Shown here piece after piece: positions 1-15,444 of a stretch of 15,444 nucleotides of DNA (the first letter of the stretch is position 1; each line of letters starts with the position of its first letter). Position numbers and translations under genes: made by a program. The notes beneath the pieces are model-generated. The model was not told where the DNA came from. It worked only from the letters and a program-made list of their open reading frames with translations, and made no database searches. Source of the stretch: a virus (lineage: Duplodnaviria > Heunggongvirae > Uroviricota > Caudoviricetes); IMG/VR virus record IMGVR_UViG_2531839585_000009. One strand, written 5' to 3'.

Positions 1-1804
1 CACCGTGCCGCTCTGGTCGCCGTCAAAGTGCGCCCCGTTATCCACGATGGCCTCTTTTTCCGGTACATGCTGCACGGCGGTGATGGCATACGTGCCGTCG
101 TCGTTCTCACGGATACTCACGCAGCGGAACAGGCGCTGGCGCACGTCGGCAGCTTCAGCCCCCAACGCTGTATTCAGCAACGCCGTCAGGAACACGGCTC
201 ACTTTCACCTTCACGCCGTCGGTGACGGACTGAACCTCCACGCTGACCGGATCCCTCCGTCAACCAGGCTTATCAGCGTGGTCCGGAGATGGCAGCGTGA
301 TTTCACGGTCGAGCGTCAGCGTCCGGGTCTGGCTGTTCACCGCCAGCACGCGCCCCGGTGCTGATACCGGCATAGTCATCATCGCAGATTTCAATGACAT
401 CGCCCGGTACATGGCGAAGCCCTTCGCACCCACGCTGAATCCACGGTCTGCGTTCCAGCAGTTCGTTTTAATCAGCCACAGCCCGGCGCGGTGTGCCTGC
501 CCCCGGCTGGTACAGCCAAAAGCATCCATCTTCGTGACGTTACGACCGTAACGGGCAATGGCCTGCGTGTCCTCCACAAGCTCTGTCGCCGTCTCCCAGC
601 CGTTATTCGGGTCAATCCAGTTCACCTCAACGGCATTATGGCGGTCCTTCAGGGCGCTGAAGCTGTAGCGGAACGGCGCACCATCATCCGGCATCACCAC
701 ATTACTGCGGTTATAGGTCCACACCTTATCCGACGGTCGGTCCTGCACGAACGTCAGCGTCTGCCCGTTCCATACCGGCATACAGCGCATCGCGAGCAGA
801 AATCACTGAGCACATCCCACGCCTTACGCTGGTGGTCAGAGGCATTACAGGTGATGCGCGGCTCCGTGCCGCCAAACCGTCCGGCACGACTGGTCGCAGT
901 ACTGGCCGATAATACAGCGCCCATTTATCCACATCCCGCACCAAGACGTTTCCCCATGCCGTAGCGCGGATGGGTCAGCATATCCCACAGACACCAGGCC
1001 ATGTTGTTGCTGTATGCGGCTTAAACGTTCCGTCCCAGATACCGCTGTATTGCCGCGTCTGCGGGTTATAGTTCGACGGCACCTGCAGAATACGCCCGCG
1101 CAGATGATAATTACGGCTCACCTGCTGGCTGCCGAACTGCTCCGATCCACCTGACGCCGACCAGTGCCGTGTTCGGGTAGCACTGTTTCACATCGATATT
1201 TCGGTGTATGACGACCAGAGCGTTTTGTTCTGCAGCTGGTCTGTGGTGCTGTCCGGCGTCATTCTGCGCATCCGGATATTAAACGGGCGCGGCGGCAGGT
1301 TATCCACCACCACCGAGGCCAGATACTGGAGTGGTTTTGCCCTTAATGGTGATGTCTTTTTCCGTCACCCAGCCACCTTACGTGTATCTGAACCAGCAGG
1401 CGACTTCCGACGGATTCCGTCCCCCTTTGAGGTGGTTTCCACCAGTGCCTGCACACCGAAGGTAAAGCGCAGACGGTCGATGTTTGCCGACGTGATGGTC
1501 CGGGTAATCGGCGTGTCGTATTTCACTTCCGTACCCAGTACCGTCTCGGAACCTGATGATTCAAATCCCTCCGGCGGTGTCTGTTCCTGCTCACCTGCCC
1601 GGAACACCACCGTGACACCAGAGATGTTAGTATTCCCCTCACTGTCCAGCACCGGTGTACTGTTCAGCAGCACGCTTTTTAATCCATCCACCGGACCTTC
1701 AACCGGCCCTTCGCTGATGGCATCGATCACACTCAGCAACTGCGTGGACTTCAGGTTGTCCTTGCTTCGCGCGGGGTATGCCCCTTACTGCTGCCTTTAC
1801 CCAT
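1..1804 (-). pseudogene. J: Tail tip central fibre / host-specificity protein J (lambda gpJ family); 5' ~1.8 kb only, the gene continues past the window start; frame broken many times
   Basis: ATG at 1804 (GGAG about 12 nt upstream) opens MGKGSSKGHTPREA, the lambda gpJ N-terminus; frame is lost about 15 codons in (GCAAGGAC where GCA-AAG-GAC is expected). ORF 1365..1739 (SVIDAISEGPVEGPVDGLKSVLLNSTPVLD...RLRFTFGVQALVETTSKGD) and ORF 260..790 (NGQTLTFVQDRPSDK...VNWIDPNNGWETATELVEDTQAIARYGRNVTKMDAFG...RVLAVNSQTRTLTLDREITLPS) match gpJ almost residue for residue. No minus-strand ORF of 60 aa or more between 790 and 1365. Confidence 0.85.
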
Positions 1805-1820
1805 TCGTCATGCTCCATAA

Positions 1821-1847
1821 ACGATAAAACCGCCCGGAGGCGGTTTC
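1821..1847 (-). terminator. GC-rich hairpin followed by U-rich tract in the I-J intergenic region (terminator-like attenuator or mRNA processing/stability element)
   Basis: Minus-strand reading AAACCGCC-TCCG-GGCGGTTTT-ATCGTTT: 7-8 bp stem, 4-nt loop, then a U-rich run; lies in the 60-nt gap between the I stop (1865) and the J start (1804). Confidence 0.5.
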
Positions 1848-1864
1848 ACATAAAACATTTTGCA

Positions 1865-2504
1865 TCAGCGACCAATCACCACAACCTGACCACCATCCCC
1901 TTCGTCTGCCGTGCTGATCTCCTGAGAAACCACGCGTGACCCCACGCGCATTTCACCGTACAGAACGGCAGAACATTGCCCTGGGCAACCATGTTATCCA
2001 GTGAGGAGAAATAGGTGTTCTGTTTGCCGTTATCTGTACTGCTGCCGTGGCGTCCTGGCTTTCGGTGCCAGCATCTGCGCCACCCGCCCAGGATCATACT
2101 GGCCCCTGCCGCATACATGCCCGATACAGCCGCGGCACCCAGCCAGCCCACAGGGTTCCACCATGCCACCGCAATCACGCCGCCCCCAGCACCACCTGAA
2201 ACACACCGCCACTTTTAGCTCCCGCCAGACGCGGCACGATTGGATCACGGCACCATTTGCCAGCGGCTCATTAAGACGGGCAGACAATTCGGTTTCACCT
2301 GCATCACGCCCGGCAATGCGTACCTGTACCAGCCGTCGCTCAGTTTCTGACGAAACGCCGGGATCTGCATGGCCAGCGCCCGGATGGCTTCGGCCCCCGT
2401 TTTCACACGAAGGTCGATGCGGCGGCCAAATCGTTGCAAATCCCCGTAAAGGCAGATGCGTGCCATCCCGGTGACGCCAGAGGGAGTGTGTGCGTCGCTG
2501 CCAT
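1865..2504 (-). pseudogene. I: Tail tip assembly protein I (lambda gpI family); frame broken about 5-6 times
   Basis: ATG at 2504 gives MAATHT-PS..; the next frame gives GMARICLYGDLQRFGRRIDLRVKTGAEAIRALA..FRQKLSDGWY (ORF 2245..2466); further pieces QVRIAGRD...GAVI and VAQMLAPKARTPR (in ORF 2030..2872), TDNGKQNTYFSSLDNMVAQGNVLP (ORF 1876..2178) and ISTADEGDGGQVVVIGR-stop sit in different frames. All match lambda gpI. Confidence 0.8.
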
Positions 2505-3144
2505 TTGTCGGTATACCTCTCTCGTTTACTCAGTTGTTCAGGAATATGGTGCAGCAGCTCACCGTCGCCGCAGTAAATGGCGGCATGATTCGGCACCGAT
2601 GAACCAAAACAGCACAGCAGCACATCGCCCGGTTGTGCTGATGACAACGCCACCTGATACAGCCCTGTGGCCTCCAGATTATCCAGATAGAGATTCTGAC
2701 CGTGACGCCACCAGTCATCCCCGCGATGAAAATCCGGCATCTCAATCCCCGCCAGATGATAAGCATCCCGGAACAGCGTGTAACAGTCCGTCACCCCGTG
2801 CTCAAAGCGCCGCCCGGTGAGATGCGGCACACAGCGGAACTTATGAATCTCCCCCGGCAGACCAGCCACCACGGCAAATCACTCTGCACCTGCAGCCGCC
2901 GGTCAGCCTCACTCAGCCAGGGCAGACCACCGGGGTGGCTGTGGACCAGCGCCACAATCTCACCCTGCATCTCTGCCTGCAGCCAGTCCTCCGGCGACAT
3001 CCGGAAATACGCCTCCGGCTCACCGGAGATATTCACGCAGGGAAAATATCTTTCCCCCTCCGGCGTTCTCACCACGAAGCCGCACGATTCCGCTGGCGCA
3101 CATCGCCGGGCGTGCGCCAGAATCGCTGATTCTGTCTGTGTCAT
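2403..3144 (-). pseudogene. K: Tail tip assembly protein K (lambda gpK family; N-terminal JAMM/MPN domain, C-terminal NlpC/P60-like domain); at least 2 frameshifts
   Basis: ATG at 3144: MTQTESAILAHARRCAPAESCGFVVRTPEGERYFPCVNISGEPEAYFRMSPEDWLQAEMQGEIVALVHSHPGGLPWLSEADRRLQVQSDLPWWLVCRG (JAMM motif HSHPGG...SEAD present). Frame is lost at about 2850 (CGGGGGAGATTCAT, one base short); the continuation EIHKFRCVPHLTGRRFEHGVTDCYTLFRDAY...DKWQRRTHSLWRHR is in ORF 2030..2872; a second break at about 2530 (GGG where GGGG is needed) precedes the C-terminus ...ASAFTGI.NDL.AASTFV-stop at 2403. The 3' ~100 nt overlaps the start of I in another frame. Confidence 0.85.
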
Positions 3145-3148
3145 GGGA

Positions 3149-3819
3149 TTACTGCGAAAGTTTGTTAATGGAAAGGAAGCCGCCAAAGTTGCCGACGTTA
3201 TTGCGAAACTTACAGCCCTCAGGCATTTGCTGCATTTATCCTTCGTGATATCGGACGTGGCTGGTCATATTCATCGCGACAGCCGGACCGATAACCGCAC
3301 TCTCACCGCGATAGGTCCAGGTGCAGGTGTTGGCCAGCATGATCGCCCGGAAAAACAGCCCTCCGTTTCCGTCGGGTGGAAGACAAAGAGGCACTACCGC
3401 CTCAGTTCGCTCACTGCTCATGCGCCAGCGGCTGATCACCTCCTGCTCCGGATCGGCTCTGTTTCCGTTGACGAAGTTCACCGCATCCAGAAAACGGGCG
3501 TAAACCTTACGCCGACCACCGTTCCGCCGACCAGACTCTGCATCTTCCGCCATCCCGGTGACCATCCGTCAGGTTAGAACCGTCAGTGTCGGACGGGCAG
3601 CACTGCCCTTCCGTTCAGTTCAAATCCCGTCCCCTGAATGGGGTATGCCTGATACTGCCGCCCCTGCCAGGTGACCGGCTCACCTTTTTCGTTCTGCTCA
3701 TTACAGAAAAAATAACGTTCACCACCGACCTCTGTCAGATCGATTTCCCAGAGCACCACCTGGGCTGACTGAGTAAGGCGTGTCGTCTCATGATGTGTTT
3801 CCTGTGGAATATCCTGCAT
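3149..3819 (-). pseudogene. L: Tail tip protein L (lambda gpL family, Fe-S cluster-binding cysteine motif); at least 3 frameshifts
   Basis: ATG at 3819: MQDIPQETHHETTRLTQSAQVVLWEIDLTEVGGERYFFCNEQNEKGEPVTWQGRQYQAYPIQGTGFELNG (ORF 3583..3819); then MVTGMAEDA...RKVYARFLDAVNFVNGN..ADPEQEVISRW...IMLANTCTWTYRG (ORF 3236..3565, itself drifting in and out of frame); the C-terminus DKCSKCL / EGCKFRNNVGNFGGFLSINKLSQ-stop (TAA 3149..3151) is split across two frames. Confidence 0.85.
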
Positions 3820-3828
3820 CAGGGCCTC

Positions 3829-4156
3829 CTATGCCACGACCTGTTCAAAATCTGCCGTTATGGTTACCCACAGCGCCCCCACGCTTGCCGACCATTTACG
3901 ACAAACCACCCTGATCGGCTTCCAGTCATAAGGTGGCGTCCACTGAAATGCCGGACGCCACCGTGCCGTTCCAGAAAGGCTTTCAAAGATGGGTGTCACA
4001 TTTACGAACACGTATCGTCACGCTGTAAGTCGACAACTGGTTATTCAGTCCCGCCGCACGACGCTGTTCATAACCATCGCCCAGCTTCACTGTCACCACT
4101 TTCGGCTCTGATACCACATTCATATCCGGGCGCACTTTCCAGTGAAACGTCTCCAT
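3829..4156 (-). pseudogene. M: Tail tip protein M (lambda gpM family); 2-3 frameshifts
   Basis: ATG at 4156 overlaps the H stop (TAATG). Frame 1 METFHWKVRPDMNVVSEPKVVTVKLGDGYEQRRAAGLNNQLSTYSVTIRV then stop; a second frame gives LKAFLERHGGV; a third gives AFQWTPPYDWKPIRVVCRKWSASVGALWVTITADFEQVVA-stop (ORF 3829..4011). All match lambda gpM; the span is 328 nt, not a multiple of 3. Confidence 0.8.
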
Positions 4157-7100
4157 TACCGATATGCTCCACTTAACCGACCACCATCACGGGCCTGCTG
4201 TTGCATAAAGTCCGCTGCCGCTTTTTTCCCAAGGTCATAAACCACCTTCAGGGCAGCCGGACCTATCTGCCCGTTCGTGCCATCGTTATTGATCTCGATG
4301 TTGTACTGCGGGGAAACATCGCCATACCTGACCCCAATATCCGCCACAACCCCCAGCTTACCGTCAGCACCACGACGCAGTGGCAGAATGGCTTCAGGTC
4401 CAGCTTCCCCCATCACACCCGCGCCTTTTGCAAAAGCAAAAAACGTCGGACGGTTAACCACCGTGCCACTGTAGCGACTCAAATCAGCCGACTGATAAAC
4501 ACCGCCATCAGCATTGGCTACAAAATCAAAAGGCAGCGCGGAAGCAATACCTTTTACCGCTTTCATTAAAGCTATCTGAGCCATGATTCTGGACATATCT
4601 GACAGCACAGAAGAGGTGAAGGATTTGAAATTGAGTTTGCCTGTAGTACAGAATGTCGCCAGCCAGTCACTCATGCTACTGAACGCAGACGTGAACAACT
4701 GTTCCACTGTCCCGGCTGTGTTATCCGCTTTCTCAGTGACATTCTGGAGTGCACGCAGGACTCCGTTTTTCCAGTTACCCTGCACAACTTCAAGCTGTTG
4801 CCAATAACGGCGATTCTCATTCAGTTGTCGGTTCAGGCTCTCCGTCAGCGCCTGCTCGGCCTTTCTGTAGTCATCCGTGTTATATGTCCCTTTCTGCTCA
4901 CTATCCCGCCTCAACTGCTCCAGCTGTTGCTGGTATTTCTGGCGAAGACTCAGTTGTACCTGATATCGCTGTCGCTGCTGATCACCCATACCCACCGTGG
5001 CGATATCCAGGTCATGTTGCTGACGCTGAGCGCGCTCTTCTTCAGCCAGTTGACTGGTCAGCTGAATTGTTTTTTTCTTCAGATCGTTGAGTGCCGTCTG
5101 TTTCTGAAGCTCCTGCTGTTTTACATCCAGCAGCGTCAGTGCCTGAATCAGTTCATCTTTACGGGCCAGCACACTCTTTTCATCTGCCGTCAGTTTTTTC
5201 CCGTCCAGATCGCTGATGCGCTGCTGCAGAGCCAGAAGCTGTTTATGCGCTTCTGTCATCCTTCGTGGCAATGCCTGCTGACTGTCTGCAGCAGCAATCT
5301 GTCCTTCCACCTGTGCCTGTTGCTGACTGTACTGCAGCAATAACCGGGTGGCCTCATCATTACGGGTTTCGCGTGTTTTTTTCTTACCGGATGCCAGGGC
5401 TTTCTCGTAACGTTCATTTTCACGTTGTATCGCCGCATCCCTGACAGCCTGATCGGCGTACTGCATGGCATTAATACGCGCAATTTCACGCTGATGTCGT
5501 GCTGCTTCCGTTTCATTCATCCGGTTCAGTGCAGCATTTTCAGCATTACGGCGTTTCTGTTGCTCCTGATAATTCCGCTCTGCCTGCTCTTTTGCATCCT
5601 GCAAATCCTTCTGGCGTTTTTTCTCCTGAAGCTCGTTAAGACGCTGCTGATCGTACTCAACCTGAGAAGATGATGCCGTCCAGGGGAGTCTTTTCGCCCG
5701 CGACACTTTCTCCTGTAAAGCGGCAATCTGTTCATCCAGCGAGTCTTCACGACCAATATTCATGGCCGCATCCCAGAAACGACTCCACAAATCAGACAGA
5801 TACTTCAGCGTACTGCCAAGCGCATTGAGGTTATTATCAATATCCGCAGTACGCCGACCGGTTTCCTCTGCCAGTGCAGACATGGCTATCCGTGCAGCAT
5901 CACTGGACCGCCCCTGCTCCCCAAGGACGCGTATCTGCTCAAGCTGAGTGGCAGTAAGAAAATGCAGCTCATTGTCCAGAGCCTTCGCGGCATTTACAGG
6001 ATCATCCTTCAGCCGCTTAAACTGATTTATGGTATCGCTGACCGACTGGCCAACCGATCGCTCCATCTGTGCGGCAACTCTCGCCACCATACCGATATCG
6101 TTTCCACGAAATGCACCACTCCCCACCACCTGAGCCAGCGCACCGGCTGCAGCATGTTGCGTGATACCATTCCCGGAAATAGCACGACTGAGCGTCCACA
6201 GCTGCCCGGCAGTGACTCCGGCATAATGCCCCGTCAGCGACAGCTGGCGGTTAAATTCTTCCCCCTCCTTCTGACCGTCATACCAGGCTTTACCCAGACC
6301 ATAGACAGCCGCGGCAATACCGCCAATAACCCCGCCAAGCATCATGCCTTTCGGTGACATCAATGTGTCTATCCACCCGGCACGGTTAGCCAGCGTTATT
6401 CCGGATCCCCTCAGCGCACCTAAATTGCCGCGGGCCAGTTCACCTATCAGAACGCCTATCTCCTGACGGGCCGCTGCACTTTTCAGACCCAGCGAATGCG
6501 TTGCTTTTCCTGCCTGCTCCATTTTGCGGATATACACTTCTGCAGCACTGCTTACCCCCAGCTGGGCAGCCTTAGCACGAAGCAACTCAGAAGAAGAAAG
6601 ATTCTGGCGGGTTGCCTGCTCTTTAAGCTGACGGATAAACGCCACTTTCTGTCGGGTAGCCTCTTCCTCAGCCTGTGTAAGAACACGGGTTTTCGCCGTA
6701 ACCTCAGAAATCAGCGCCAGATAATCCTGCTGACCAATCCCGCCACTGTTTCTGGCCTGTCGGATCTGCTGCTGAATACGCTGTAATTCCTGCAGCCCCG
6801 CACTGGCCTGTTTCACACTGTCAATCTGACGATAAAACGCAGCAGCCGCTTTATCCTGAGCCTCTGCCAGAGCCATGGCCTGCGCCTGTTCATCGCGCAT
6901 TTTCTGGCTCAGCGCCTCCATGCGCTGGCGGGTTTTCTCCACCTCGCGGGCCATGCGTTCATGAGCCTGTGCGTTCTTCTCCACCGTCTGCGCATGGACG
7001 GATGCGGCTGTTGCAGCCGAAGAAGCTGCCTGCGTTGTCTGCCGGGCGGCCTGAGTCTGACGCTCCATAAAACGCTGCATACGGGCAGAAGACCGTTCTG

Positions 7101-7206
7101 CATCGCTGGCTGCACCATTCAGAAGGTTTTTGATACGGGGAATTTCATTTTTAAACTCTGCCGCATCAATCCCCAAATCAATGACCAGGTTGGCTATCTG
7201 GTCCAT
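4156..7206 (-). CDS. H: Tail tape measure protein (lambda gpH family), intact, about 1016 aa
   Basis: Uninterrupted ORF. Likely start is ATG 7206 (MDQIANLVIDLGIDAAEF, compare lambda H MAEPVGDLVVDLSLDAARF) with GGAGGTG 6 nt upstream; the ORF track's upstream TTG at 7236 is less likely. Central Q/A/R/E-rich coiled-coil region; C-terminus INNDGTNGQIGPAALKVVYDLGKKAAADFMQQQARDGGRLSGAYR matches the lambda H C-terminus closely. Confidence 0.9.
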   Translation of the reverse strand: MDQIANLVIDLGIDAAEFKNEIPRIKNLLNGAASDAERSSARMQRFMERQTQAARQTTQAASSAATAASVHAQTVEKNAQAHERMAREVEKTRQRMEALSQKMRDEQAQAMALAEAQDKAAAAFYRQIDSVKQASAGLQELQRIQQQIRQARNSGGIGQQDYLALISEVTAKTRVLTQAEEEATRQKVAFIRQLKEQATRQNLSSSELLRAKAAQLGVSSAAEVYIRKMEQAGKATHSLGLKSAAARQEIGVLIGELARGNLGALRGSGITLANRAGWIDTLMSPKGMMLGGVIGGIAAAVYGLGKAWYDGQKEGEEFNRQLSLTGHYAGVTAGQLWTLSRAISGNGITQHAAAGALAQVVGSGAFRGNDIGMVARVAAQMERSVGQSVSDTINQFKRLKDDPVNAAKALDNELHFLTATQLEQIRVLGEQGRSSDAARIAMSALAEETGRRTADIDNNLNALGSTLKYLSDLWSRFWDAAMNIGREDSLDEQIAALQEKVSRAKRLPWTASSSQVEYDQQRLNELQEKKRQKDLQDAKEQAERNYQEQQKRRNAENAALNRMNETEAARHQREIARINAMQYADQAVRDAAIQRENERYEKALASGKKKTRETRNDEATRLLLQYSQQQAQVEGQIAAADSQQALPRRMTEAHKQLLALQQRISDLDGKKLTADEKSVLARKDELIQALTLLDVKQQELQKQTALNDLKKKTIQLTSQLAEEERAQRQQHDLDIATVGMGDQQRQRYQVQLSLRQKYQQQLEQLRRDSEQKGTYNTDDYRKAEQALTESLNRQLNENRRYWQQLEVVQGNWKNGVLRALQNVTEKADNTAGTVEQLFTSAFSSMSDWLATFCTTGKLNFKSFTSSVLSDMSRIMAQIALMKAVKGIASALPFDFVANADGGVYQSADLSRYSGTVVNRPTFFAFAKGAGVMGEAGPEAILPLRRGADGKLGVVADIGVRYGDVSPQYNIEINNDGTNGQIGPAALKVVYDLGKKAAADFMQQQARDGGRLSGAYR

Positions 7207-7905
7207 AACGCACACCTCCGGAAATACCTTCTCCAAGATGCATCAGTTCTTCGTCCGTTCGCTCCGGTATCCCGTTCTCTTCCGGTAAAAGGCTGAAATC
7301 AGCCACCGCAGCATCACTGCTGCCGGACACCATTCTCACGATCAATGCCTTCAGCGAGGCAAACTGCGCATCCATCCACACATCACTGAAGCTCTGCATC
7401 CGGAAATAATCGCCCCACTCACCAAGCTCAGTGGCCGACATTTCCGACAGCATCCGCCGCCAGTCTGCCCGCCGGAACTCCCGGGCAAGCCGCATGACAA
7501 ACTGCATTTCCCGCGTCAGGACTTTTCCGGCGTCAGCACCTCATGCTCCAAATCCCCGGCATTCTCAATGGCTCCCATACCGCTCAGCGACAGAACCATC
7601 TCCGCCCCCGCTCCCAGGGCATCATACGACCATGTTGTAATAACGGATGCGCAAAGCGTCTCAACATCCTGAGACTGTTCCGCATTCCACAGTGAGCGGG
7701 AAACCAGCCAGGCATTGATATCCATCCCCATCCGCAGAAAAGCAATCTGTCGTTCAGCCTCCGGCAGTTCTCCCTCTTCGGCATCAAACTTTGCCGTTCG
7801 CTGCTGAACAAACGCCAGATATTCAATTCTCTGCAGCCCGGACAGCTCACTGAGCACCACGGACTGTTTTTCATAATTAAACGTGCCCTGTTTCAGAAAC
7901 ATCAT
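7178..7905 (-). CDS. GT: Tail assembly chaperone G-T fusion, predicted to be made by programmed -1 ribosomal frameshifting near the 3' end of G
   Basis: The -1 frame relative to G opens at a TGA only about 10 codons before the G stop and continues for about 115 codons (..AGKVLTREMQFVMRLAREF...GPDSQPGH-stop at 7178); the candidate shift site GGAAAAG (7521..7527) sits 2 codons before the G stop, the same arrangement as lambda G/T. No independent strong RBS for T. Confidence 0.6.
7516..7905 (-). CDS. G: Tail assembly chaperone G (lambda gpG family)
   Basis: ATG-ATG at 7905/7902 preceded by GGTGGAG; MMFLKQGTFNYEKQSVVLSELSGLQRIEYLA resembles lambda gpG (MFLK...LSELSALQRIEHLA); ends ...LTPEKS-stop (TGA 7516..7518); position between V and H. 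Confidence 0.85.
   Translation of the reverse strand: MMFLKQGTFNYEKQSVVLSELSGLQRIEYLAFVQQRTAKFDAEEGELPEAERQIAFLRMGMDINAWLVSRSLWNAEQSQDVETLCASVITTWSYDALGAGAEMVLSLSGMGAIENAGDLEHEVLTPEKS
7521..7527 (-). other. Candidate -1 frameshift slippery heptamer GGAAAAG (one-base variant of the lambda G GGA AAG site)
   Basis: Zero-frame codons CCG GAA AAG TCC TGA; -1 frame GCC GGA AAA GTC...; A-site slip AAG to AAA is canonical, P-site re-pairing GAA to GGA is imperfect. Confidence 0.45.
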
Positions 7906-7942: not shown

Positions 7943-7962
7943 AAATGATGAGTATCGTCCTG

Positions 7963-8702
7963 TTAACCTGCGGCGCTGACAGCCACCGCAGCCACGGCCA
8001 CAAAATCGCCGTCAGAAGTCATGCCCACAATGCTGACACTGCCCTGCTTCACGCCTTTCACCGTGGCCACAAGCCCGTTCAGGGTCACCGTGGCAGTCTG
8101 TGGATCTGTCGAATGCACACTGATCGCTTTGTCACTGGCTCCGTCAGGTTTTACTGTAAAGGTCAGCGTGGTGGTTGCTCCCACTTTTACACTGGCAGAT
8201 GCCGGTGCCACCGTCAGCCCGGTAACGCCCACGGTTTCAGTGCCTTCCTCTGCCAGATACGGACGCCCCACACCGCTGATTTTCACGGTGCGGGTCATCA
8301 CGTCTTTTGAGGCAATGGTTTTACCCAGTGAACTCAGCCAGCCACGGAAAACATCAACAGTACCGTTGGGATATTTGATACGAAACGCGCAGACTTCACC
8401 GGAGTCGAACAACTGAACCAGTTTTTTCTGCCCGCTGTCACCCGGACGCCAGGCCAGCGTCGCCGAAGTATCACCGACGGATTTCTGCCCCTGGGTTGTC
8501 GTTTTCCAGTCTGCATCTTCATCATCGAGATAAGTGTCATCTTCTGCATCAGCGGTCATTTCGCCAGGTTGCAGATCCTTCACCATCGCAAGACGCACCA
8601 GTCAGTGTCCGAAAAGGGTTCGCAAACGCATCGCCTTGCCGGTTACATCCAGAACGTCGTTCCCGCACCTTTCGTTTTTGCCAGTGGATTTGGTGTGGTC
8701 AT
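7963..8702 (-). pseudogene. V: Major tail tube protein V (lambda gpV family) with C-terminal Ig-like (Big_2-type) domain; the first ~100 nt carry about 4 single-base deletions, the remaining 211 codons are intact
   Basis: ATG 8702 with AAGGAGGTG 5 nt upstream: MTTPNPLAKTKGAGTTFWM then in-frame TAA; the pieces TGK, DAFANPF, PFSDTDW and RLAMVKDLQPGEMTADAEDDTYLDDEDADW lie in alternating frames and together reconstruct the lambda gpV N-terminus. ORF 7963..8598 continues ...YPNGTVDVFRGWLSSLGK...RTVKISGVGRP... and ends with an Ig-like segment (LTVAPASASVKVGATTTLTFTVKPDGASDKAISVHSTDPQTATVT...). Confidence 0.85.
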
Positions 8703-8712
8703 TACCACCTCC

Positions 8713-9126
8713 TTAATTCGTGTACGTGATCTGGTACGTGATTTCCGCCATCGCCCAGGTGGCCATCTCATTATCACGTTGATAGTTAAAACCGAGTGGG
8801 ATCAGGGTGTCGATGAGTCCGGAAAGTGCCGGTATATCATTCAGGGCCGGGAAAATGGTGCTCTCCATCCACATATCCAGCTCTGAATCCGGTGCCTGTG
8901 CCCGGATGAAGACAGCAATATGCAGAACAGCCTGCCAGTCATCTTCATCCGTCATTTTTCCGGTGTACTGAGCATCACTCAGCCACACTGCCACGGCAGG
9001 CAGTTCCTGCGCATCAACAAATGCCGGAAGCCCGTCAAAAAACGTGGCGCTGTCTCCACACTGTTCCCGAAGGCGTGCTAGTACGGCCTGGCGGATTTGT
9101 GTATGTCGGTTCATCGGGTCAGCCAT
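8713..9126 (-). CDS. U: Tail terminator protein U (lambda gpU family)
   Basis: Intact ORF; ...ATFFDGLPAFVDAQELPAVAVWLSDAQYTGK...WQAVLHIAVFIRAQAPDSELDMWMESTIFPALNDIPALSGLIDTL...YQITYTN aligns with lambda gpU (ATFFDGRPAVFDEADFPAVAVYLTGAEYTGE...PDSELDAWMESRIYPVMSDIPALSDLITSM...YVITYEM). Start could be ATG 9126 or ATG 9114. Confidence 0.85.
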   Translation of the reverse strand: MADPMNRHTQIRQAVLARLREQCGDSATFFDGLPAFVDAQELPAVAVWLSDAQYTGKMTDEDDWQAVLHIAVFIRAQAPDSELDMWMESTIFPALNDIPALSGLIDTLIPLGFNYQRDNEMATWAMAEITYQITYTN

Positions 9127-9689
9127 AACCTCAGTTGTTGTTTCAGTGCATACCCCAGCTGTTTCGGCATTTCCGCAGCAATAATGCGGTCGCGGGCATC
9201 TTCAAATGCTTGTGTCAGCGGTCCGGACAGCGGGACTTTCACCACATCAATGGGGTAACGATTTTTGCCATCAATACGCCGCATCACATGCCAGCGACCA
9301 TTCGCCAGTTGCTGAATAAACGCATCCCGGAAAAGATATTTACCCACCTTCAGCACACTGCCACGGTACTGCAGTTTTCCACCACGCCGGGCCAGTCTGA
9401 CCCGGGCTGTCCCCAGCTTAATAGCGGGCAGATTGCCCCGGTTAACGCGGATCCTGGCCGTCATTTTTCCTGACGGACTGGCTTTAAACACCCGGACACG
9501 CTGACGTACCAGTTTCAGGGGGATCCCTTTCACCTGGTTATCTCCCGCAACGGTATTCCCGGCAACCTGCCGGGTGGCGACCGAGACCGCTTTCTGTGCC
9601 ACACGGTTTATCGCCCATGCGCTGGCCTGTGGCACCATACGGGTATCAAGGCTGTTCAGATTACGGATGGCATTCTCAAGCCCCTTCAT
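9111..9689 (-). CDS. Z: Tail completion protein Z (lambda gpZ-like by position and size, 192 aa)
   Basis: Intact 192-aa ORF, ATG 9689 preceded by AGAGGTG; basic, Arg-rich; sits between the FII-like gene and U exactly as lambda Z does and overlaps U by 16 nt. Identity is inferred mainly from synteny and length. Confidence 0.7.
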   Translation of the reverse strand: MKGLENAIRNLNSLDTRMVPQASAWAINRVAQKAVSVATRQVAGNTVAGDNQVKGIPLKLVRQRVRVFKASPSGKMTARIRVNRGNLPAIKLGTARVRLARRGGKLQYRGSVLKVGKYLFRDAFIQQLANGRWHVMRRIDGKNRYPIDVVKVPLSGPLTQAFEDARDRIIAAEMPKQLGYALKQQLRLWLTR

Positions 9690-9700
9690 CCCACACCTCT

Positions 9701-9976
9701 TTACTCAATAAAGATCATTGGCTTACCGTTAAAGCGTTCATGCCGTGTGACCGTCCATTGTTGTCCGTCATAAACAACGCGATCCCCGCGCCGTGGGCGG
9801 TATCCCGAAGAAAACACCACCAGAGATACCGCAGGTCCGGACAGAGCATTCAGCTCTGCCAGTGTTTCTCCCGGGATCACAGTCATATCGGCATCATTAA
9901 TCGAGGCTGTCTTTCCCATCTTTCTGACCGTGATCGCATCCATACGCGCTGCCAGCCGGGAAAAGGGATCAGACAT
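9701..9976 (-). CDS. Head-tail joining protein (lambda gpFII-like)
   Basis: Intact 91-aa ORF; PFSRLAARMDAITVRKMGKTASI...VSLVVFSSGYRPRRGDRVVYDGQQWTVTRHE parallels lambda FII (...AIARADETIRGYMGTSATI...PSLFVRTDEVRQLRRGDTLTIGEENFWVDRV); overlaps the upstream gene by 8 nt. Confidence 0.6.
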   Translation of the reverse strand: MSDPFSRLAARMDAITVRKMGKTASINDADMTVIPGETLAELNALSGPAVSLVVFSSGYRPRRGDRVVYDGQQWTVTRHERFNGKPMIFIE

Positions 9977-10292
9977 TGAGTTTTACCGGCACTTCTTCTG
10001 CACTGGTTCCGGCATCTGCCCAGACAACCCCGACCAGCGGATCAGAGCCGCTGTTAGTCAGCTGAACTTTTCCGGACTTCAGATAAACCTTCTTACCCGT
10101 TTTCATGTCATCCGTTTTCAGCTTAGGCAGCATAAACACACCTTCGGTCATGCCGTCGCCTGTTTCACCCTGTGGAATATCGGTCAGCGCCACCGCAAAA
10201 ACATCACCCACCTGCACCAGATCTCCGCTGCTGATGGCTGCACTGGCAACAATCGCCACCGTTTTTCCTTCTTCTACAAAATTCTTTGCCAT
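9969..10292 (-). CDS. DUF2190-like small phage head protein (possible decoration/cement protein)
   Basis: Start most likely ATG 10292 (MAKNFVEEGKTVAIVASAAISSGDLVQVGDVFAVALTDIPQGETGDGMTEGVFMLPK...KVYLKSGKVQLT..) with GGAGA 6 nt upstream; the ORF-track extension to 10337 would run through the terminator hairpin. Family assignment is from memory of the motif pattern, not a search. Confidence 0.5.
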   Translation of the reverse strand: MAKNFVEEGKTVAIVASAAISSGDLVQVGDVFAVALTDIPQGETGDGMTEGVFMLPKLKTDDMKTGKKVYLKSGKVQLTNSGSDPLVGVVWADAGTSAEEVPVKLNV

Positions 10293-10305
10293 AACTGTCT
10301 CCGCA

Positions 10306-10324
10306 CAGCCCCGTTCAGGGGCTG
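10306..10324 (-). other. Second stem-loop abutting the Shine-Dalgarno sequence of the DUF2190-like gene
   Basis: Plus-strand CAGCCCC-GTTCA-GGGGCTG (7-bp perfect stem); on the minus strand it ends 3 nt before the GGAGA RBS; no U-tract follows. Confidence 0.4.
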
Positions 10325-10335
10325 ATTTCAGGTAC

Positions 10336-10355
10336 AAAAAAAGCCCTTACGGGCC
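10336..10355 (-). terminator. Intrinsic terminator immediately downstream of the protease/capsid gene
   Basis: Minus-strand reading GGCCC-GTAA-GGGC followed by TTTTTTT: GC stem with GNRA-type tetraloop and a 7-U tract, 23 nt after the capsid stop codon (10379..10381). Confidence 0.7.
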
Positions 10356-10378
10356 ATCAGAGTTGTTGTCTGCGACGT

Positions 10379-12334
10379 TTACGCCGTACATTTCACCAGA
10401 CCGCGGTGATCAACTGGCGCGACACCGGCGTCAATACGCACTTTCGTTGTCACGCCATCCACACTGAAGCCCTCCATCTGATCAATATATGGCGTATCCA
10501 CACCGTTGAGATAAGCCACTTCAATCGTATCGGAGCCTTTTGACGCAGCCAGGTAGAAGGTGGTCAGGCTGTTATCATCAAGACGAGGCTCTGCAATAAC
10601 GGTCGCAAAATCTTTCACCGGGTTAATAATACCGGCGTTAATGTCAGCCCCCTTGACACTTGAGGAGCGAATGACCTGGTTAGCAACAGACTCCATCGCC
10701 GTCGGTACCAGTACGAACGCAGGACGAATATTCAGATGACGCTCCCCCTCTTTCTGAACGCGCATCAACTGGCGGGCTTTATCCAGCGATGCCACGTCCA
10801 TTGCAGCGCTCTCCAGTACGTTTGCATGTTTCGCTTTATCGAACAGACTTACATTATCTGTGGAGATTTTCGGGTTAGACGTCAGAATGGCATAAACCAG
10901 ATCGGCAATAGTGGATTTCGCCGCACGGCCCAGCTTCATCGGGACATCGGTCAGCATATTCAGATCATCATTGATAATGGCCTGACGGGTGATACTGAAC
11001 AGCTCGCCATAGGTCGCCAGTGCAATAGTGGCCTGTTTATCTCCGGTGGTGACGTATTTATATTCCGCCCCTTCACGCACCTGACGCAGAGCACTGAAGC
11101 CCCCCATACCCACACGATGGGCAATTTTAAAATCAGACAACTGACCTTTCCGCGTCCACTGTTCATAGGTTTCAGGGGCATCTTCCCAGCCCTGCAGAAT
11201 GGCTTTGTTCGCAACATCCAGCAGAATATTACCGAAGTCAGACGTACTGTGTGTGAACGCCGCACCGACCATCTGCATCGGGTTATAACTGGAAACCCCA
11301 ATACCCCGTTCAGTCAGTGACATACGGGCATATTCACGCAGGGTCATCCCGTTGTAGACATTATCACGTTCGGTTTTTTCAAATCCGGCACGCGCCATCA
11401 GCGCCTGGCGGATCCCGTCCCCCACAAAATTACCGTTACCGGCATAAATATGAGCCGGGGTATTTTTATTGGATGGCGTGGACTCGCGCCCCATCTCGTT
11501 CAACAGCTTTTCGCGGGCCTGCTCCAGCGAACATTCAGGATCGGCAAGACACTGAGCCTGCAGCGTCTGATAACGCCCGCCAAACATGGCAAACAGATCA
11601 TTAATACCGTTTACACGCGCTTTTTGCTCTGCCAGTACCTGCGCACGGATACTGTTTTCATCCACCACGGGTGCTGCTGCCTGCACTGGCGTCCGGGAAG
11701 CTGCAGGTTCATTATCCTGTACGCGTGGAGCACTGTTGCGTGGCGGAGTAATCATGTTTCGAATGGATTCCGGCATCTTTTTAAATTCCTCTGTACGTTT
11801 TGACTGAATACATGCCATTGCCTTAACGGCTGGCGTCACCTGATCAGCAAATCCCTGTGCCAGACATTCGGCACCGGACATCCAGGTCTCATCCGCCAGC
11901 ATGGCAGCAATTTCATCGGTGGTTTTCCCGGTTTTCTGTGCATAAGCGGGTAACAGAACCGCCTCAACTTATCGAGCAGGTCGGCATAGGTGCGCATGTC
12001 CTCCGCATCACCGCCCGTAAAGCCAAATGGTTTATGAATCATCATGAAGGTGTTTTCCGGCATAATGACCGGTTTCCCACCATCGCAATGACCGACGCCA
12101 TTGAGCCGCCACACCGTCGACATAAACGGTAATGGACGCACCATGTGTTTTCAGCGCATTAAAAATGGCGATGCCTTCAAAGACATCGCCACCCGGTGAA
12201 TTGATATGGAGATTAATGTGGGTGATATCGCCCAGTGCATTCAGATCACTGATAAACTGCTTCGCTGTAACCCCCCAGAAACCAATCTCGTCATAAATAT
12301 AAATATCCGCGTCACTCTGGTGACCAGCCTGCAT
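10379..12334 (-). pseudogene. Fused prohead protease (ClpP / S14-like) - linker - major capsid protein (HK97-fold); protease part broken by at least 3 single-base deletions, capsid part (507 codons, 10379..11902) intact
   Basis: Protease pieces: DIYIYDEIGFWGV...INSPGGDVFEGIAIFNALKTHGASITVYVDGVAA (ORF 12032..12439), then SMASVIAM in the third frame (catalytic Ser context), then GKPVIMPENTFMMIHKPFGFTGGDAEDMRTYADLLDKL (ORF 11836..12144; MIHxP His motif), then the capsid frame from EAVLLPAYAQKTGKTTDEIAAMLADETW onward. Putative start ATG 12334 (weak RBS, uncertain). Confidence 0.8.
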
Positions 12335-12380
12335 CCTGAACCAGGAATTATTCTTCGGACTGGTCGTCGGTGTACTGCGG

Positions 12381-13852
12381 CTACTGTCGTTTCGTTGCGG
12401 CACTGCTGCCTCCTTTATCACTGGCCGGATCGGTATCAAATACTAGGTCCAGCTTGCGGTTTTCATCAATTTCGGCCTTGCGCCGACGTTTGACATCATC
12501 CGGATTACGACCACCTGCACGTACCCAGTCTGATTCTGTCGCCGCTCCACCACGAATCTGGATTTTCCAGGCCTCAGCCTCCTTAACAGGATCAATCCAC
12601 GGCATCACCGGTCCGGAATACACCGCGGTATACAGTGAAGAACGGTCAAGATCGCGGGGTAGCCTGATAACACCGGATGCCACAGCCTGTTTCAGCCAGG
12701 CACGATACATCGGGCGGGTGACGGCACCAATAAACCAGTCCTGCAGGATCAGGTAGCCATCAGTGGATTCAACCAGCTCCTGACGCTGGGCGCTGTAAGT
12801 GCCGTTATAGTTGCGCGCTGTACTGGAAAAACTCAGACGACTGCCCGCCGCCACGGCACGCAACTGACCATTACGAAAAGTTTCAAGGTTAGGATTGGGG
12901 CGATCCGACTTCACCATTCCGATTTCTTCGCCGGGTTTCAGATCGTCGTAAATAATGCCTGGCTGAATGGTAAGCTCGCGTTCCTTATCCTTGCTGCCAT
13001 TACCATCCGTTTCATAGCTCTGTCCGTCGCCTTTGCGGATGTACATCCCCAGAGCAGCGGCGACCCTTGCTGCAGTCAGCTCAGAATCTTCATACTCTTT
13101 CAGGGCGCTGAGGCGGATCAGCACACCGGACAATAAAGACGTCCCGCGCATCTGGTGCAGACGGCGAACAAATTTAAGATGCAGCATTCGCTCTGCATCC
13201 ACTTCTTTGGTTTCCATCTGCCGTCCGGATACAGGACGACTTTTATACACCAGATATTTTTCGGGACGCCCCCAGTCATCAACAAACACGCCCTGATTCA
13301 GCCTGTTGCTCTCATCACTGGTCATGGGAATAAAGTCCGGCTCGAGCGCCTCCAGCCAGAAATGAACACCGGCAGAAGGCGTCAGGCTGTTTATGCGCCC
13401 GGAAACCATCTGGGCAAACACCTCACCATCGCGCAGCCAGGTACGCAGCATCAGACGTTCCAGCATCGGACGGGTAAACTGCCCGGTGACTCCGGCTGAC
13501 AGACCATTCACTCCATCGGGTCGATCTCCGCTGCCAGATCACGGGCAATGGCCCCATTGCGTAATACCGGATGTGGCTCGACAATAATCCCGTTTTTCCC
13601 CACCACCCGTTCTTCCAGCTTGTCAAATACACCAATAACCAGATCGTGGTTGTTATCAAGGTAACGGGCCTGCTCACGTAACGACACGGCCCCGTACTGG
13701 CTTAGCTGGTCGGCAGTTCGGTTCTCCCGTCGGGCTTTGTGTGTCCGCGTCGTTTTTACGGCTTCATAAGCCTGGATCACCGCACGGGAACGCAGCCTTG
13801 CCGCTTTCCATCCAGGTGAAAAAACGCCAATCACATCATCAAGAATTGCCAT
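12381..13852 (-). pseudogene. Portal protein (lambda-type portal family); one frameshift near 13510
   Basis: ATG 13852 overlaps the W stop (TGATG), GAGG about 8 nt upstream: MAILDDVIGVFSPGWKAARLRSRAVIQAYEAVKTTRTHKARRENRTADQLSQYGAVSLREQARYLDNNHDLVIGVFDKLEERVVGKNG... runs to a stop at 13508; the remaining 376 codons (ORF 12381..13511) continue in another frame. Total span 1472 nt, not a multiple of 3. Placement between W and the protease/capsid gene and the size (about 490 aa) fit a portal. Confidence 0.8.
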
Positions 13853-14064
13853 CAGAACCTCGCCAGCCGGTACCCGGGATGCCCCCGTCGTCGTGTAATC
13901 AGAGCCGCAAGGCGGCGCTCCCACTCCTGCCGTCCCTGTCGGATCTCAGATAAGTTTTCCATTGTCATCTGCTGACCATTAAAGGTGACGGATTTTCCGT
14001 CCAGCACCGCCATTTCAGCTTCCGTATAACGCTGAATCATGGCTTCGATATCATTCTGGTTCAT
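13852..14064 (-). CDS. W: Head-tail joining protein W-like (lambda gpW family)
   Basis: Small intact ORF between terminase and portal; ...LDGKSVTFNGQQMTMENLSEIRQGRQEWERRLAAL..RRRG resembles lambda gpW (...[50 protein letters not shown]). GGAGG lies 6 nt before the second ATG (14064), so that is the more likely start than 14070. Confidence 0.7.
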   Translation of the reverse strand: MNQNDIEAMIQRYTEAEMAVLDGKSVTFNGQQMTMENLSEIRQGRQEWERRLAALITRRRGHPGYRLARF

Positions 14065-15444
14065 AACCATCCTCCGGAAGTCAGCCAGGGGTTAACATCG
14101 TCAGTTACTGTTTTCTTCCGTTTTTGTTTTTTAACAGGCGTGGATACCGGTTCCGGTGAGGGTGACGGTTCGGTACTGTCCGGGACACACTCCAGCCAGG
14201 TTTCCCGGCTCGCCCACTCCGGTGCATCCGGCCAGCGGATCTTTTCGTATCCATGCAGAATGACCAGAGCCTCGGCATACACCATCAGGTCAAAAGCTTC
14301 GTTGGCACCGCGACCCGGCTTACTCCATTTCCCGTCACTGCTCCGCTCTTCATACGTCAGTTCGTCGTAAAACCAGCTCCCCAGCCAGTCAGGGAAATGC
14401 ACATAGCCGGGACCTGGCGAGTCACGCCATAACGCGTTATTCACCCGTCTTTCAGGGCATCCGTCTGAAGAAGCCAGAGCGGCACATCACCTGCGGCCTG
14501 CGCCCGTCGGCCCGTTCGTCCGGTGTTATCAGGGAATGTACGGGTGATCAGTTTTGCGCGCCGGATGCTGTCGCCCTTAAACAGGTAAATACGTTTACCA
14601 AGGCCATCACGACGGCAACGACGCCAGAATTTATAGGCATTATCAGTGACCCCGTCTTCACCGCCGGAGTCCACCGCCATTGCCATCAGTCGCATTTGTT
14701 GAGAAGGATCGGAGGCCAGCGGCCAGCTTTTATGAAAAACATCCGTCAGCAGGACATCCCAGTCTTCCGGATAGCTGGCCGGATCAATTCGCTGGCTCTC
14801 CCCGTCGCTGTCACCGCGCAATGACTGCGTGATGTTGTAACGATCAATAATCCAGCGTTCGCCACGGCTGCCATAGCCCGTTACCTGAACCACAAAACGG
14901 CGATGACGTCCCGCCTGCACATCCACTGTCGCCACAAGGAAATTAACGCCATCCGGCACACTGCGGGAAGGAACTGGCTCTGCCCGCTGCTCAAGCAATT
15001 CACTTTTTCGTTGCTCCATGCTGGCACGAGGAAGATAAGGCAATCCCCAGTCGGTGTTGATAACCGCCCTGAGTGTTTCTTCGCTTCCTGTCGCTTCATA
15101 CTCCTGTTCTGCAGTCAGTAATTTGTAAACCAGTTGCGCCCAGGTCTGATACGCAGCAGCTGGCCCTTCCATCCAGAAACTGGCGATACGGGAGCGGCGC
15201 GGTTCACCGGAAACGTTGCCGTTACGATCAATGACCTGCCCTTCACGCAACCAGACTCCTGCACTATTGAGCTCACGCTTTTTCTCCGCAGTGATAATGC
15301 CGCTGCAGTGCGGGCAAAGTAGATACGCCGCCTCACTGGCTTTGTAACCGGCTCATTTAAACCGTCTGGTCTGTTTCCTCCGGCTCTACAAAAATAATGT
15401 CCATCATTTTTAATGGACACTATCGTATGAAACACCGGACCTGG
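14061..15444 (-). pseudogene. A: Terminase large subunit (lambda gpA / Terminase_GpA family), C-terminal ~460 codons; 5' end lies beyond the window end; at least 2 frameshifts
   Basis: Three consecutive frames: 15444 to about 15365; about 15365 to 14441 (..LCPHCSGIITAEKK...FLVATVDVQAGRHRRFVVQVTGYGSRGERWIIDRYNI...MAMAVDSGGEDGV..., compare lambda gpA ACPHCGEEQ / YLTAGIDSQLDRYEMRVWGWGPGEESWLIDRQII / ICWDTGGIDP); 14444 to 14061 (..GPGYVHFPDW...ANEAFDLMVYAEALV, compare lambda PGAVHFPNN...RNEALDCFVYALAAL). The 14441 junction reads GACGGGTGAAT where one extra G would restore ..KD.VNNALW. Confidence 0.85.

What the first reader, a model, noticed from the sequence alone, without database searches (positions are those of the whole stretch)
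1..15444. Patchy, deletion-only frameshifts across an otherwise complete structural operon
Gene order and content are complete, yet J, I, K, L, M, the first 100 nt of V, the protease domain, portal and terminase are all broken. H (3051 nt), the capsid domain (1521 nt), G/T, U, Z, FII-like and DUF2190-like have no breaks. Every break I could reconstruct at nucleotide level is a single missing base, several in homopolymers: GCAAGGAC for GCA-AAG-GAC at J codon 15; GGG for GGGG at about 2530; TTTT for TTTTT in V; GGG for GGGG at 14441; G for GG at about 11880. I saw no larger deletions or IS insertions, and the broken genes remain close to lambda at protein level. Natural decay would normally add substitutions and larger lesions, so I lean towards deletion-biased sequencing error. 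The patchiness would fit polishing that failed in segments repeated in sibling lambdoid prophages of the same genome. Genuine pseudogenisation of a cryptic prophage is the alternative.
Basis: partly seen in the sequence, partly recalled or inferred. Interest (0 to 1): 0.7.

Follow-up and report, generated by a model that had tools for sequence, protein, structure and literature searches.

The report
Assembly artefact: dropped SNP columns in prophage
The many "frameshifts" in this lambda-like prophage are almost certainly errors made when the assembler merged reads from two similar prophage copies and dropped the bases where the copies differ, so the finding is an artefact; the one real lesion is an insertion sequence in the terminase gene.

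Summary
The window is a whole draft contig, APZI01000578.1, from E. coli p0305293.13. It carries the structural operon of a cdtI/mEp460-like lambdoid prophage on the minus strand.

Against intact relatives it lacks 92 bases in 85 events (78 of 1 bp, 7 of 2 bp) and has no extra bases. The missing bases are not enriched in homopolymers and are strongly clustered.

The decisive result is that 83 of 85 events fall on sites that are polymorphic among intact relatives (null mean about 20, maximum 36). In the small patches, every SNP between two specific haplotypes is replaced by a gap.

Restoring the 92 bases makes all 17 genes intact at 98-100% amino-acid identity, with pN/pS 0.14 and no nonsense changes. 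The three broken products looked up (H, a terminase fragment, a portal fragment) exist only on this contig. Repaired V, M, portal and protease-capsid proteins exist intact elsewhere.

The deletions are therefore consensus drop-outs from a collapsed pile-up of sibling prophages, probably in an Illumina/Celera assembly.

The homopolymer and sequencing-error rationale does not.

The parts
1..1804 (-). gpJ tail-tip protein, N-terminal part (cut by the contig end). 35 bases are missing, in patches 143-464 and 792-1418 and at 1763.
   Evidence: The repaired translation matches L003 J at 609/612 residues.
1865..2504 (-). gpI tail assembly protein. 8 bases are missing (1966-2466).
   Evidence: The repaired protein matches at 213/216.
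2403..3144 (-). gpK (C40/NlpC-P60 peptidase). 2 bases are missing, at 2466 (in the I/K overlap) and 2851.
   Evidence: The repaired protein matches at 244/248.
3149..3819 (-). gpL minor tail protein. This is the densest patch, with 28 bases missing in 3217-3610 (6.6%).
   Evidence: The best of 4357 genomes is 93.3% identical over 421 versus 449 nt. 22 of 25 events match SNPs against the lambda-type allele L011.
3829..4156 (-). gpM. 2 bases are missing (3951, 3995).
   Evidence: The repaired protein is 110/110 identical and exists in the collection.
4156..7206 (-). gpH tape measure. The ORF is open, but 6 bases are missing in two frame-restoring triplets (4313/4331/4333 and 5262/5264/5286).
   Evidence: All 6 sites are SNPs between L003 and L004/L001. 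The exact 1016-aa protein occurs only on this contig.
7178..7902 (-). gpG and gpT tail assembly chaperones, intact.
   Evidence: no missing bases.
7963..8702 (-). gpV major tail protein. 4 bases are missing (8597, 8612, 8635, 8643). Each is exactly a SNP between the L007/L002 and L003/L006 alleles.
   Evidence: Both repaired versions exist intact on 394 and 256 contigs.
8713..10292 (-). gpU, gpZ, the FII-like (Gifsy-2 family) protein and the DUF2190 head decoration-like protein, all intact.
10379..12403 (-). ClpP-like prohead protease / major capsid fusion gene. 3 bases are missing in the protease part (11968, 12070, 12104). The capsid part (10379-11902) is clean.
   Evidence: The repaired 675-aa protein is found in 2 Logan contigs.
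12381..13852 (-). Portal gene (491-aa allele with its natural stop at codon 492). 4 bases are missing (13491-13523), all at L007-versus-L003 SNPs.
   Evidence: The repaired protein equals ENB02940.1. The broken 361-aa fragment is unique to this contig.
13852..14064 (-). Small head-tail adaptor (W-like, DUF6148), intact.
14061..15343 (-). Terminase large subunit, C-terminal 428 codons only. 1 base is missing at 14446. The N-terminal part is cut off by the IS.
   Evidence: The 243-aa product that ends at 14441 is unique to this contig.
15344..15444 (+). Left end (starting GTAA...) of an IS66-family element (ISCro1-like) inserted in the terminase gene. The contig ends inside this repeat. This is the one genuine lesion.
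   Evidence: One search shows an alignment identical to ETEC-2265. Searches show the annotated tnpA/tnpB/ISCro1 transposase and the truncated terminase.

Best explanation
The frameshifts are not in the bacterium's DNA. The source genome probably carries two or more sibling cdtI-like or lambdoid prophages whose structural genes are 93-100% identical in segments.

The proposed chain of events is as follows.
1. The assembler piled reads from both copies into one contig.
2. At columns where the copies differ, the consensus step emitted a gap instead of either base.
3. One base was therefore lost per inter-copy SNP, and two bases where SNPs were adjacent.

This also accounts for the patchiness. Segments where the copies are identical have no SNPs, so nothing is lost. 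Segments that are too divergent are not co-assembled, so they are also clean. Only segments of intermediate divergence are riddled with deletions.

Shown here:
- The missing bases coincide with SNP sites among intact relatives.
- The change is deletion-only.
- The repaired genes are intact and look selected.
- The three broken products looked up (H, a terminase fragment, a portal fragment) are unique to this contig.

Inferred:
- A sibling copy exists in this particular genome.
- The fault lies in the consensus stage of Celera Assembler working on Illumina reads.

The only real damage is the IS66-family insertion in the terminase gene, which would by itself make this prophage copy unable to package DNA.
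For: 1. 85 events and 92 bases are all missing from the window. There are no window-specific insertions against six references.
2. In an alignment-blind test, 63 of 85 events fall on sites polymorphic among six intact references (null mean 7.7, SD 4.0, maximum 20 of 5000). With a 32-sequence panel, 83 of 85 do so (null mean 19.6, maximum 36).
3. In the patches at 4300-4340, 5250-5295, 8590-8650 and 13485-13530, every SNP between two named haplotypes is a gap and nothing else differs.
4. The codon phase of the missing bases is 19/13/60 for positions 1/2/3. This mirrors natural SNPs (24/17/59%) and not the even thirds expected of random events.
5. Restoring the bases gives 17 intact genes at 98-100% amino-acid identity with no nonsense codons. 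pN/pS is 0.14.
6. In the gpL patch there are 28 missing bases against about 2 substitutions. None of 4357 E. coli genomes shares the deletions.
7. The broken H, terminase and portal products occur only on this contig. Repaired V, portal (ENB02940.1), protease-capsid and M exist intact elsewhere.
8. The proxy strain 204446 carries the same IS-interrupted prophage plus an intact sibling cdtI-like prophage. The two differ at exactly the V-patch sites.
9. The contig is a whole 15.4-kb piece of a draft with at least 578 contigs and it ends inside an IS. The isolate series was sequenced with Illumina at more than 200x and assembled with Celera Assembler.
Against: - No reads were available, so no pile-up was inspected.
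- The sibling copy in this very genome was not seen. Only proxies were examined.
- Two events (1763 and 2466) are not at sites polymorphic in my panel.
- The repaired H (four allele combinations) and the repaired K were not found as exact proteins anywhere. This fits a chimeric consensus but does not prove it.
- Not every inter-haplotype SNP in the larger patches is dropped. For example, in 130-480 there are 11 gaps, 5 sites with one allele and 5 with the other.
- I cannot name the exact step in the assembler that turns a biallelic column into a gap.
- The link between this isolate and the published methods is inferred, because the paper's Table S1 is not held.
Confidence: 0.93

Rival explanations
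1. Genuine pseudogenisation. The prophage is cryptic and has accumulated real single-base deletions in J, I, K, L, M, V, protease, portal and terminase.
For: The prophage copy is truly defective, because an IS66-family element interrupts the terminase gene, so selection on the structural genes could be relaxed. Bacterial indel mutation is deletion-biased (general knowledge). Two events, at 1763 and 2466, are not explained by panel polymorphism.
Against: - There are no insertions, no events longer than 2 bp and no nonsense substitutions. pN/pS is 0.14.
- The gpL patch has 28 missing bases against about 2 substitutions.
- There is no homopolymer bias.
- 83 of 85 events sit on SNP sites of other prophage alleles, which a mutational process cannot know about.
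- Relatives that share the same IS insertion (L002, L007) have none of the deletions.
- The three broken products looked up are unique to this contig.
Confidence: 0.03
2. Deletion-biased raw sequencing error (long-read or flow-chemistry homopolymer under-calling) left uncorrected by polishing.
For: The change is deletion-only and patchy. Another assembly in the panel (L004, OHT76-1) has a 'frameshifted' capsid gene with 8 missing bases that are not at polymorphic sites, which shows that this error type exists in the family.
Against: - There is no homopolymer enrichment: 67% of events are in runs of 1, against a 56% background.
- The events fall on SNP sites with the codon-phase spectrum of SNPs. 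Read-level noise would be blind to both.
- The project used Illumina at more than 200x, where random read errors cannot reach the consensus.
Confidence: 0.03
3. The same consensus artefact, but the second haplotype comes from a mixed culture or cross-contaminated library (two strains) and not from a sibling prophage in one genome.
For: The SNP drop-out signature only requires two haplotypes in the read set. The assembly is very fragmented, with at least 578 contigs against a study mean of 212.
Against: Related complete ETEC genomes carry two or more cdtI-like or lambdoid prophages with exactly this kind of segmental similarity, so a single genome is enough. The isolates were single colonies.
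Confidence: 0.05

Closest known systems
Phage cdtI (NC_009514) / mEp460-like lambdoid phages, and their prophage relatives in E. coli
   Same: The gene order is the same from J to terminase. Nucleotide identity is 97-98% over 15.3 kb. They share an HK97-style ClpP-protease/major-capsid fusion, a lambda-type tail module and the G/T chaperone pair.
   Different: The window lacks 92 bases relative to every relative. It is cut in J by the contig end and in the terminase gene by an IS. It appears to be a consensus chimera of two alleles.
ISCro1 (IS66-family)-interrupted cdtI-like prophage of ETEC strains ETEC-2265, 204446, 120899, 103605 and 504237
   Same: The IS-terminase junction is identical, at window 15343/15344. 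Identity is 99.3% over 9414-15444. The portal is the same 491-aa allele.
   Different: Those complete genomes have none of the 92 deletions. The left half of the window (1-9242) matches other alleles better in places.
Collapsed-repeat or mixed-haplotype consensus errors in draft assemblies (a known class of assembly artefact; general knowledge)
   Same: The errors are confined to repeated, slightly diverged segments. The contig ends in repeats. The errors sit at the sites where the copies differ.
   Different: The usual outcome is a majority base or an ambiguity code. Here the outcome is systematic loss of the column (deletion-only), which mimics frameshift decay. The responsible software step was not identified.

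Membership tests
cdtI/mEp460-like lambdoid prophage structural module | Collinear gene order from J to terminase, with high nucleotide identity to type members | tested here: met
   A single HSP of 15.3 kb at 97.7% to NC_009514 and 98.2% to L003. Pfam families of the called genes are consistent.
cdtI/mEp460-like lambdoid prophage structural module | Fused ClpP-like prohead protease / major capsid gene | tested here: met
   After repair, a 675-aa ORF matches L003 at 670/676, and the exact protein is present in the collection.
Genuinely decayed (pseudogenised) cryptic prophage | Lesions reproducible in independent assemblies or shared by close relatives | tested here: not met
   For the deletions this is not met. 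None appears in 4357 genomes for the gpL patch, and the three broken products looked up are unique to this contig. It is met only for the IS66 insertion.
Genuinely decayed (pseudogenised) cryptic prophage | Relaxed selection: nonsense changes, pN/pS near 1, and a mixed indel spectrum (insertions, multi-base deletions, slippage in repeats) | tested here: not met
   There are no nonsense changes and pN/pS is 0.14. There are no insertions and no events longer than 2 bp, and there is no homopolymer bias.
Homopolymer or long-read deletion-biased sequencing error | Errors enriched in homopolymer runs | tested here: not met
   52 of 78 single-base events are in runs of length 1 and only 2 are in runs of 4 or more, which is at or below background.
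Homopolymer or long-read deletion-biased sequencing error | Error-prone platform or low coverage | tested here: not met
   The published methods for the isolate series are Illumina HiSeq2000 at more than 200x with Celera Assembler. The link to this particular isolate is inferred.
Collapsed-repeat consensus artefact (SNP-column drop-out) | Error positions coincide with differences between repeat copies | tested here: met
   63 of 85 events with six references (null maximum 20) and 83 of 85 with 32 sequences (null maximum 36). There are haplotype-exact matches in four patches. The codon phase matches that of SNPs.
Collapsed-repeat consensus artefact (SNP-column drop-out) | A second, similar copy exists in the same genome | not testable with these tools
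   Other contigs of GCA_000356865.2 could not be retrieved. The proxy strain 204446, which has the same IS junction, has two sibling cdtI-like prophages. E. coli genomes have a median of 3 places that match the window.
Collapsed-repeat consensus artefact (SNP-column drop-out) | Reads show two alleles and no deletion at the sites | not testable with these tools
   No read data are accessible. Indirect support comes from the intact repaired portal and protease-capsid proteins, which exist in another assembly from the same submission batch and in Logan read-level assemblies.

The most novel reading that the evidence does not exclude
Some or all of the single-base losses are real and arise biologically at mismatched positions. 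For example, repair of heteroduplex DNA during gene conversion between sibling prophages could be error-prone and delete the mismatched base, which would leave a trail of -1 lesions exactly at inter-copy SNPs. A weaker version is that only the two events not explained by panel polymorphism (1763 in J codon 15 and 2466 in the I/K overlap) are genuine frameshifts in a prophage already crippled by the IS.
Probability: 0.02. Interest if true: 0.6.

Novelty: not a real feature. Interest (0 to 1): 0.08.

Why it matters
The biological interest is small. This is a known type of prophage, with a known IS insertion that it shares with related ETEC genomes.

The practical interest is in data quality.
- A draft contig can imitate extensive pseudogene decay.
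- The artefactual proteins have entered reference databases. The scrambled 1016-aa tape-measure protein carries RefSeq and UniRef identifiers.
- The signature found here gives a read-free way to flag such contigs before they inflate pseudogene counts or estimates of 'cryptic prophage' decay. That signature is deletion-only change, no homopolymer bias, missing bases on sites polymorphic among relatives, and an SNP-like codon phase.

Tried and rejected
1. Homopolymer or slippage context: no enrichment.
2. Bin-level comparison of deletion density with the differences between the two sibling prophages of strain 204446 (L006 versus L007): no simple correlation. This initially argued against the pile-up idea. 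The site-level tests then showed that the true sibling alleles are a different mosaic.
3. Looking for the source or an identical copy among 5426 complete E. coli genomes and 50,697 phage records: none was found, and the best match was 98.4%.
4. Finding sister isolates through intact 'rare' window proteins (FII-like and W-like): both are far too common, at about 11,500 and 72,800 blocks.
P0004 is in any case a different allele at 96% identity.
6. Exact look-up of the repaired H (four allele combinations) and K: not in the collection.
7. Literature searches for the WGS or assembly accession found nothing, and the paper's Table S1 is not held.
8. The portal 'internal stop' after repair is the natural end of the 491-aa allele, as in L002 and L004.
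9. DGR-like or polymerase-driven hypermutation was considered and dropped. The changes are deletions at SNP sites, not adenine-targeted substitutions or run-associated -1 events.
Full report
WHAT THE WINDOW IS

The 15,444-nt window is an entire WGS contig, APZI01000578.1, of draft assembly GCA_000356865.2. The source names the organism as Escherichia coli p0305293.13. It carries, on the minus strand, the structural operon of a cdtI/mEp460-like lambdoid prophage. The genes and their window coordinates are:

- J, N-terminal part: 1-1804
- I: 1865-2504
- K: 2403-3144
- L: 3149-3819
- M: 3829-4156
- H: 4156-7206
- T and G: 7178-7902
- V: 7963-8702
- U, Z, FII-like and DUF2190: 8713-10292
- ClpP-protease/major-capsid fusion: 10379-12403
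- Portal: 12381-13852
- Small W-like protein: 13852-14064
- Terminase large subunit, C-terminal 428 codons: 14061-15343

The best full-length relatives are phage cdtI at 97.7% and E. coli prophages at 98.2-98.4%. No record is identical.

Positions 15344-15444 are not terminase sequence. They match, base for base, the left end (starting GTAA...) of the IS66-family element ISCro1 that interrupts the terminase gene in ETEC-2265, 204446 and related ETEC genomes, at the same junction. The contig therefore ends inside an IS at one end and inside J at the other. Both are typical repeat-induced contig breaks.

CHECKING THE OBSERVATION

- Count and direction. Pairwise alignment to L003 gives 85 indel events. 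All are bases missing from the window (78 of 1 bp and 7 of 2 bp) and none is an insertion. In a six-reference alignment there are 92 columns where only the window has a gap, and none where only the window has a base.
- Per gene. The missing bases number J 35, I 8, K 2, L 28, M 2, H 6, V 4, protease 3, portal 4 and terminase 1. T, G, U, Z, FII-like, DUF2190, the W-like protein and the capsid part have none.
- H is not untouched. It keeps its frame only because its six missing bases fall in two tight triplets. The result is a 1016-aa protein with two scrambled stretches.
- Clustering. The events are strongly clustered. The variance-to-mean ratio in 100-nt bins is 3.75, against at most 1.53 in 5000 simulations. 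Local density reaches 6.6% in gpL.
- Homopolymers. 67% of single-base events hit runs of length 1, against a 56% background.

WHAT THE DELETIONS ARE

The alignments showed that the missing bases lie exactly where the reference alleles differ from one another.

- In V, the four gaps are the four L007-versus-L003 SNPs.
- In the portal patch, the four gaps are the four SNPs.
- In H, all six gaps are SNPs between L003 and L004 or L001.

I tested this formally in two ways.

- Alignment-blind test. I took gap positions from a pairwise alignment that cannot see polymorphism, normalised each gap over its equivalent placements, and took polymorphism from a references-only alignment. 63 of 85 events contain a polymorphic site. 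The local-shift null has mean 7.7, SD 4.0 and a maximum of 20 in 5000.
- Wider panel. With a 32-sequence allele panel, 83 of 85 events do so, against a null mean of 19.6 and a maximum of 36. Only 1763 and 2466 are unexplained.

In four small patches every SNP between two named haplotypes is a gap and nothing else differs. In the gpL patch a lambda-type allele explains 22 of 25 events. The codon phase of the missing bases is 19/13/60 for positions 1/2/3, which matches natural SNPs (24/17/59%) and not an even split. From the counts my arithmetic gives a chi-square of about 43 on 2 df. A mutational process or read noise has no way of knowing which sites vary in other prophage copies. A consensus built from a pile-up of two copies does.

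THE GENES UNDERNEATH ARE HEALTHY

- Restoring the 92 bases makes all 17 genes read through at 98-100% amino-acid identity to L003.
- The one apparent stop, at portal codon 492, is the natural end of the 491-aa allele annotated in L002 and L004.
- Substitutions against L003 give pN/pS of about 0.14.
- In the gpL patch there are about 28 missing bases for about 2 substitutions, and none of 4357 E. coli genomes with a match shares the deletions.
- Relatives that share the IS insertion (L002, L007) have none of them.

INDEPENDENT OCCURRENCE

The broken products specific to the deletions occur only on this contig among 153 billion gene positions. These are the H protein of 1016 aa, the terminase fragment that ends at 14441 and the portal fragment of 361 aa.

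Conversely, several proteins rebuilt by filling the dropped columns exist intact elsewhere:

- Both V alleles, on 394 and 256 contigs.
- The 491-aa portal, as ENB02940.1 on one 6-kb contig from the same submission batch.
- The 675-aa protease-capsid fusion, in two Logan read-level assemblies.
- M.

The rebuilt H (four combinations) and K were not found. This would fit a chimeric consensus. In the larger patches the SNP sites that were not dropped carry a mix of both alleles, and the best-matching reference switches along the window.

WHY IT HAPPENED (INFERRED)

- A model for the source genome. Strain 204446 has the same IS junction and carries two sibling cdtI-like prophages, one IS-interrupted and one intact. 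They are identical in some segments, differ by a few per cent in others, and are very different near the terminase end. E. coli genomes have a median of 3 places that match the window.
- The sequencing project. The P0305293 series belongs to the GSCID ETEC project. The study of multiple colonies per patient reports Illumina HiSeq2000 paired-end reads at more than 200x and Celera Assembler, with 36-687 contigs per genome. The link to this isolate is inferred, because Table S1 is not held.
- The likely mechanism. An overlap-layout-consensus assembler that tolerates a few per cent mismatch would merge reads from both copies wherever they are similar enough. The consensus step evidently emitted a gap at biallelic columns. 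Identical segments then stay clean, very divergent segments (for example 15001-15343) stay clean, and segments of intermediate divergence lose one base per SNP. That is the observed patchiness. I could not identify the exact software step.

RIVAL EXPLANATIONS

- Genuine decay is contradicted by the SNP-site coincidence, the absence of insertions, longer deletions and nonsense changes, the low pN/pS, and the lack of any second occurrence.
- Raw deletion-biased read error is contradicted by the lack of homopolymer bias, by the SNP-site and codon-phase signature, and by the platform and coverage.
- A mixed culture in place of a sibling prophage would give the same artefact and cannot be excluded without reads, but it is unnecessary.
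- A biological process that deletes mismatched bases during inter-prophage gene conversion is conceivable, but nothing here supports it.

VERDICT

Its preferred conclusion, an artefact tied to sibling prophages, is right. Its mechanism of homopolymer sequencing error and failed polishing is not. There is no new biology here. The prophage is a known type with a known IS66-family insertion. The value of the finding is as a data-quality warning and as a read-free diagnostic for collapsed-repeat consensus errors.

Noticed in passing
window 15344-15444: These positions are the left end of an IS66-family element (ISCro1-like) inserted in the terminase large-subunit gene. The junction is identical to that in the ETEC genomes ETEC-2265, 204446, 120899, 103605 and 504237. 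The contig stops inside the IS.
   Followed up: yes
window 4156-7206 (- strand): The artefactual 1016-aa tape-measure protein, with two scrambled stretches near residues 641-648 and 959-966, has been propagated into reference resources as END28247.1, WP_001503592.1 and UniRef100_UPI0002CC013E.
   Followed up: partly
window 12381-12383 (portal codon 492): The portal gene carries a TAG at codon 492 where L003 has GAG. This is the natural 491-aa allele that is also annotated in L002 and L004 (against 502 aa in cdtI and L003), so it is not a lesion.
   Followed up: yes
window 9251-9500, 12751-13250 and 15001-15343: The best-matching reference switches along the contig. At 9251-9500 the counts are 35 mismatches to L007 and 0 to L003. 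At 15001-15343 they are 0 to L007 and 92 to L006. This is either natural mosaicism or a chimeric consensus of two prophage copies, and I did not resolve which.
   Followed up: partly
whole window, + strand: The missing bases show a purine excess on the + strand: 54 of 92 against a 45% background (binomial p of about 0.012), with G the commonest. I have no explanation for this.
   Followed up: no
L004 (NZ_CP135244.1, strain OHT76-1), locus 11464-13500: The protease/capsid gene is annotated 'frameshifted'. It lacks 8 bases relative to L003 and none of them is at a polymorphic site. This is a different error type from the window's, and more like classic read or polishing error.
   Followed up: partly
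L020 (GCA_045620485.1) and L021 (GCA_045611185.1), locus about 16200-20276: These single-contig genome assemblies also show fragmented L, K, I and J gene calls. About half of their missing bases relative to L003 (12 of 26 and 9 of 19) lie on polymorphic sites. The tail-tip module may therefore be a recurrent trouble spot for consensus and polishing where sibling prophages exist.
   Followed up: partly
L006 and L007 (NZ_CP025910.1, strain 204446): One ETEC chromosome carries two cdtI-like prophages with near-identical structural modules. One is intact and lies next to prfC/osmY, and the other has ISCro1 in the terminase gene. This is a ready model for the repeat structure I infer in the source genome.
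   Followed up: yes
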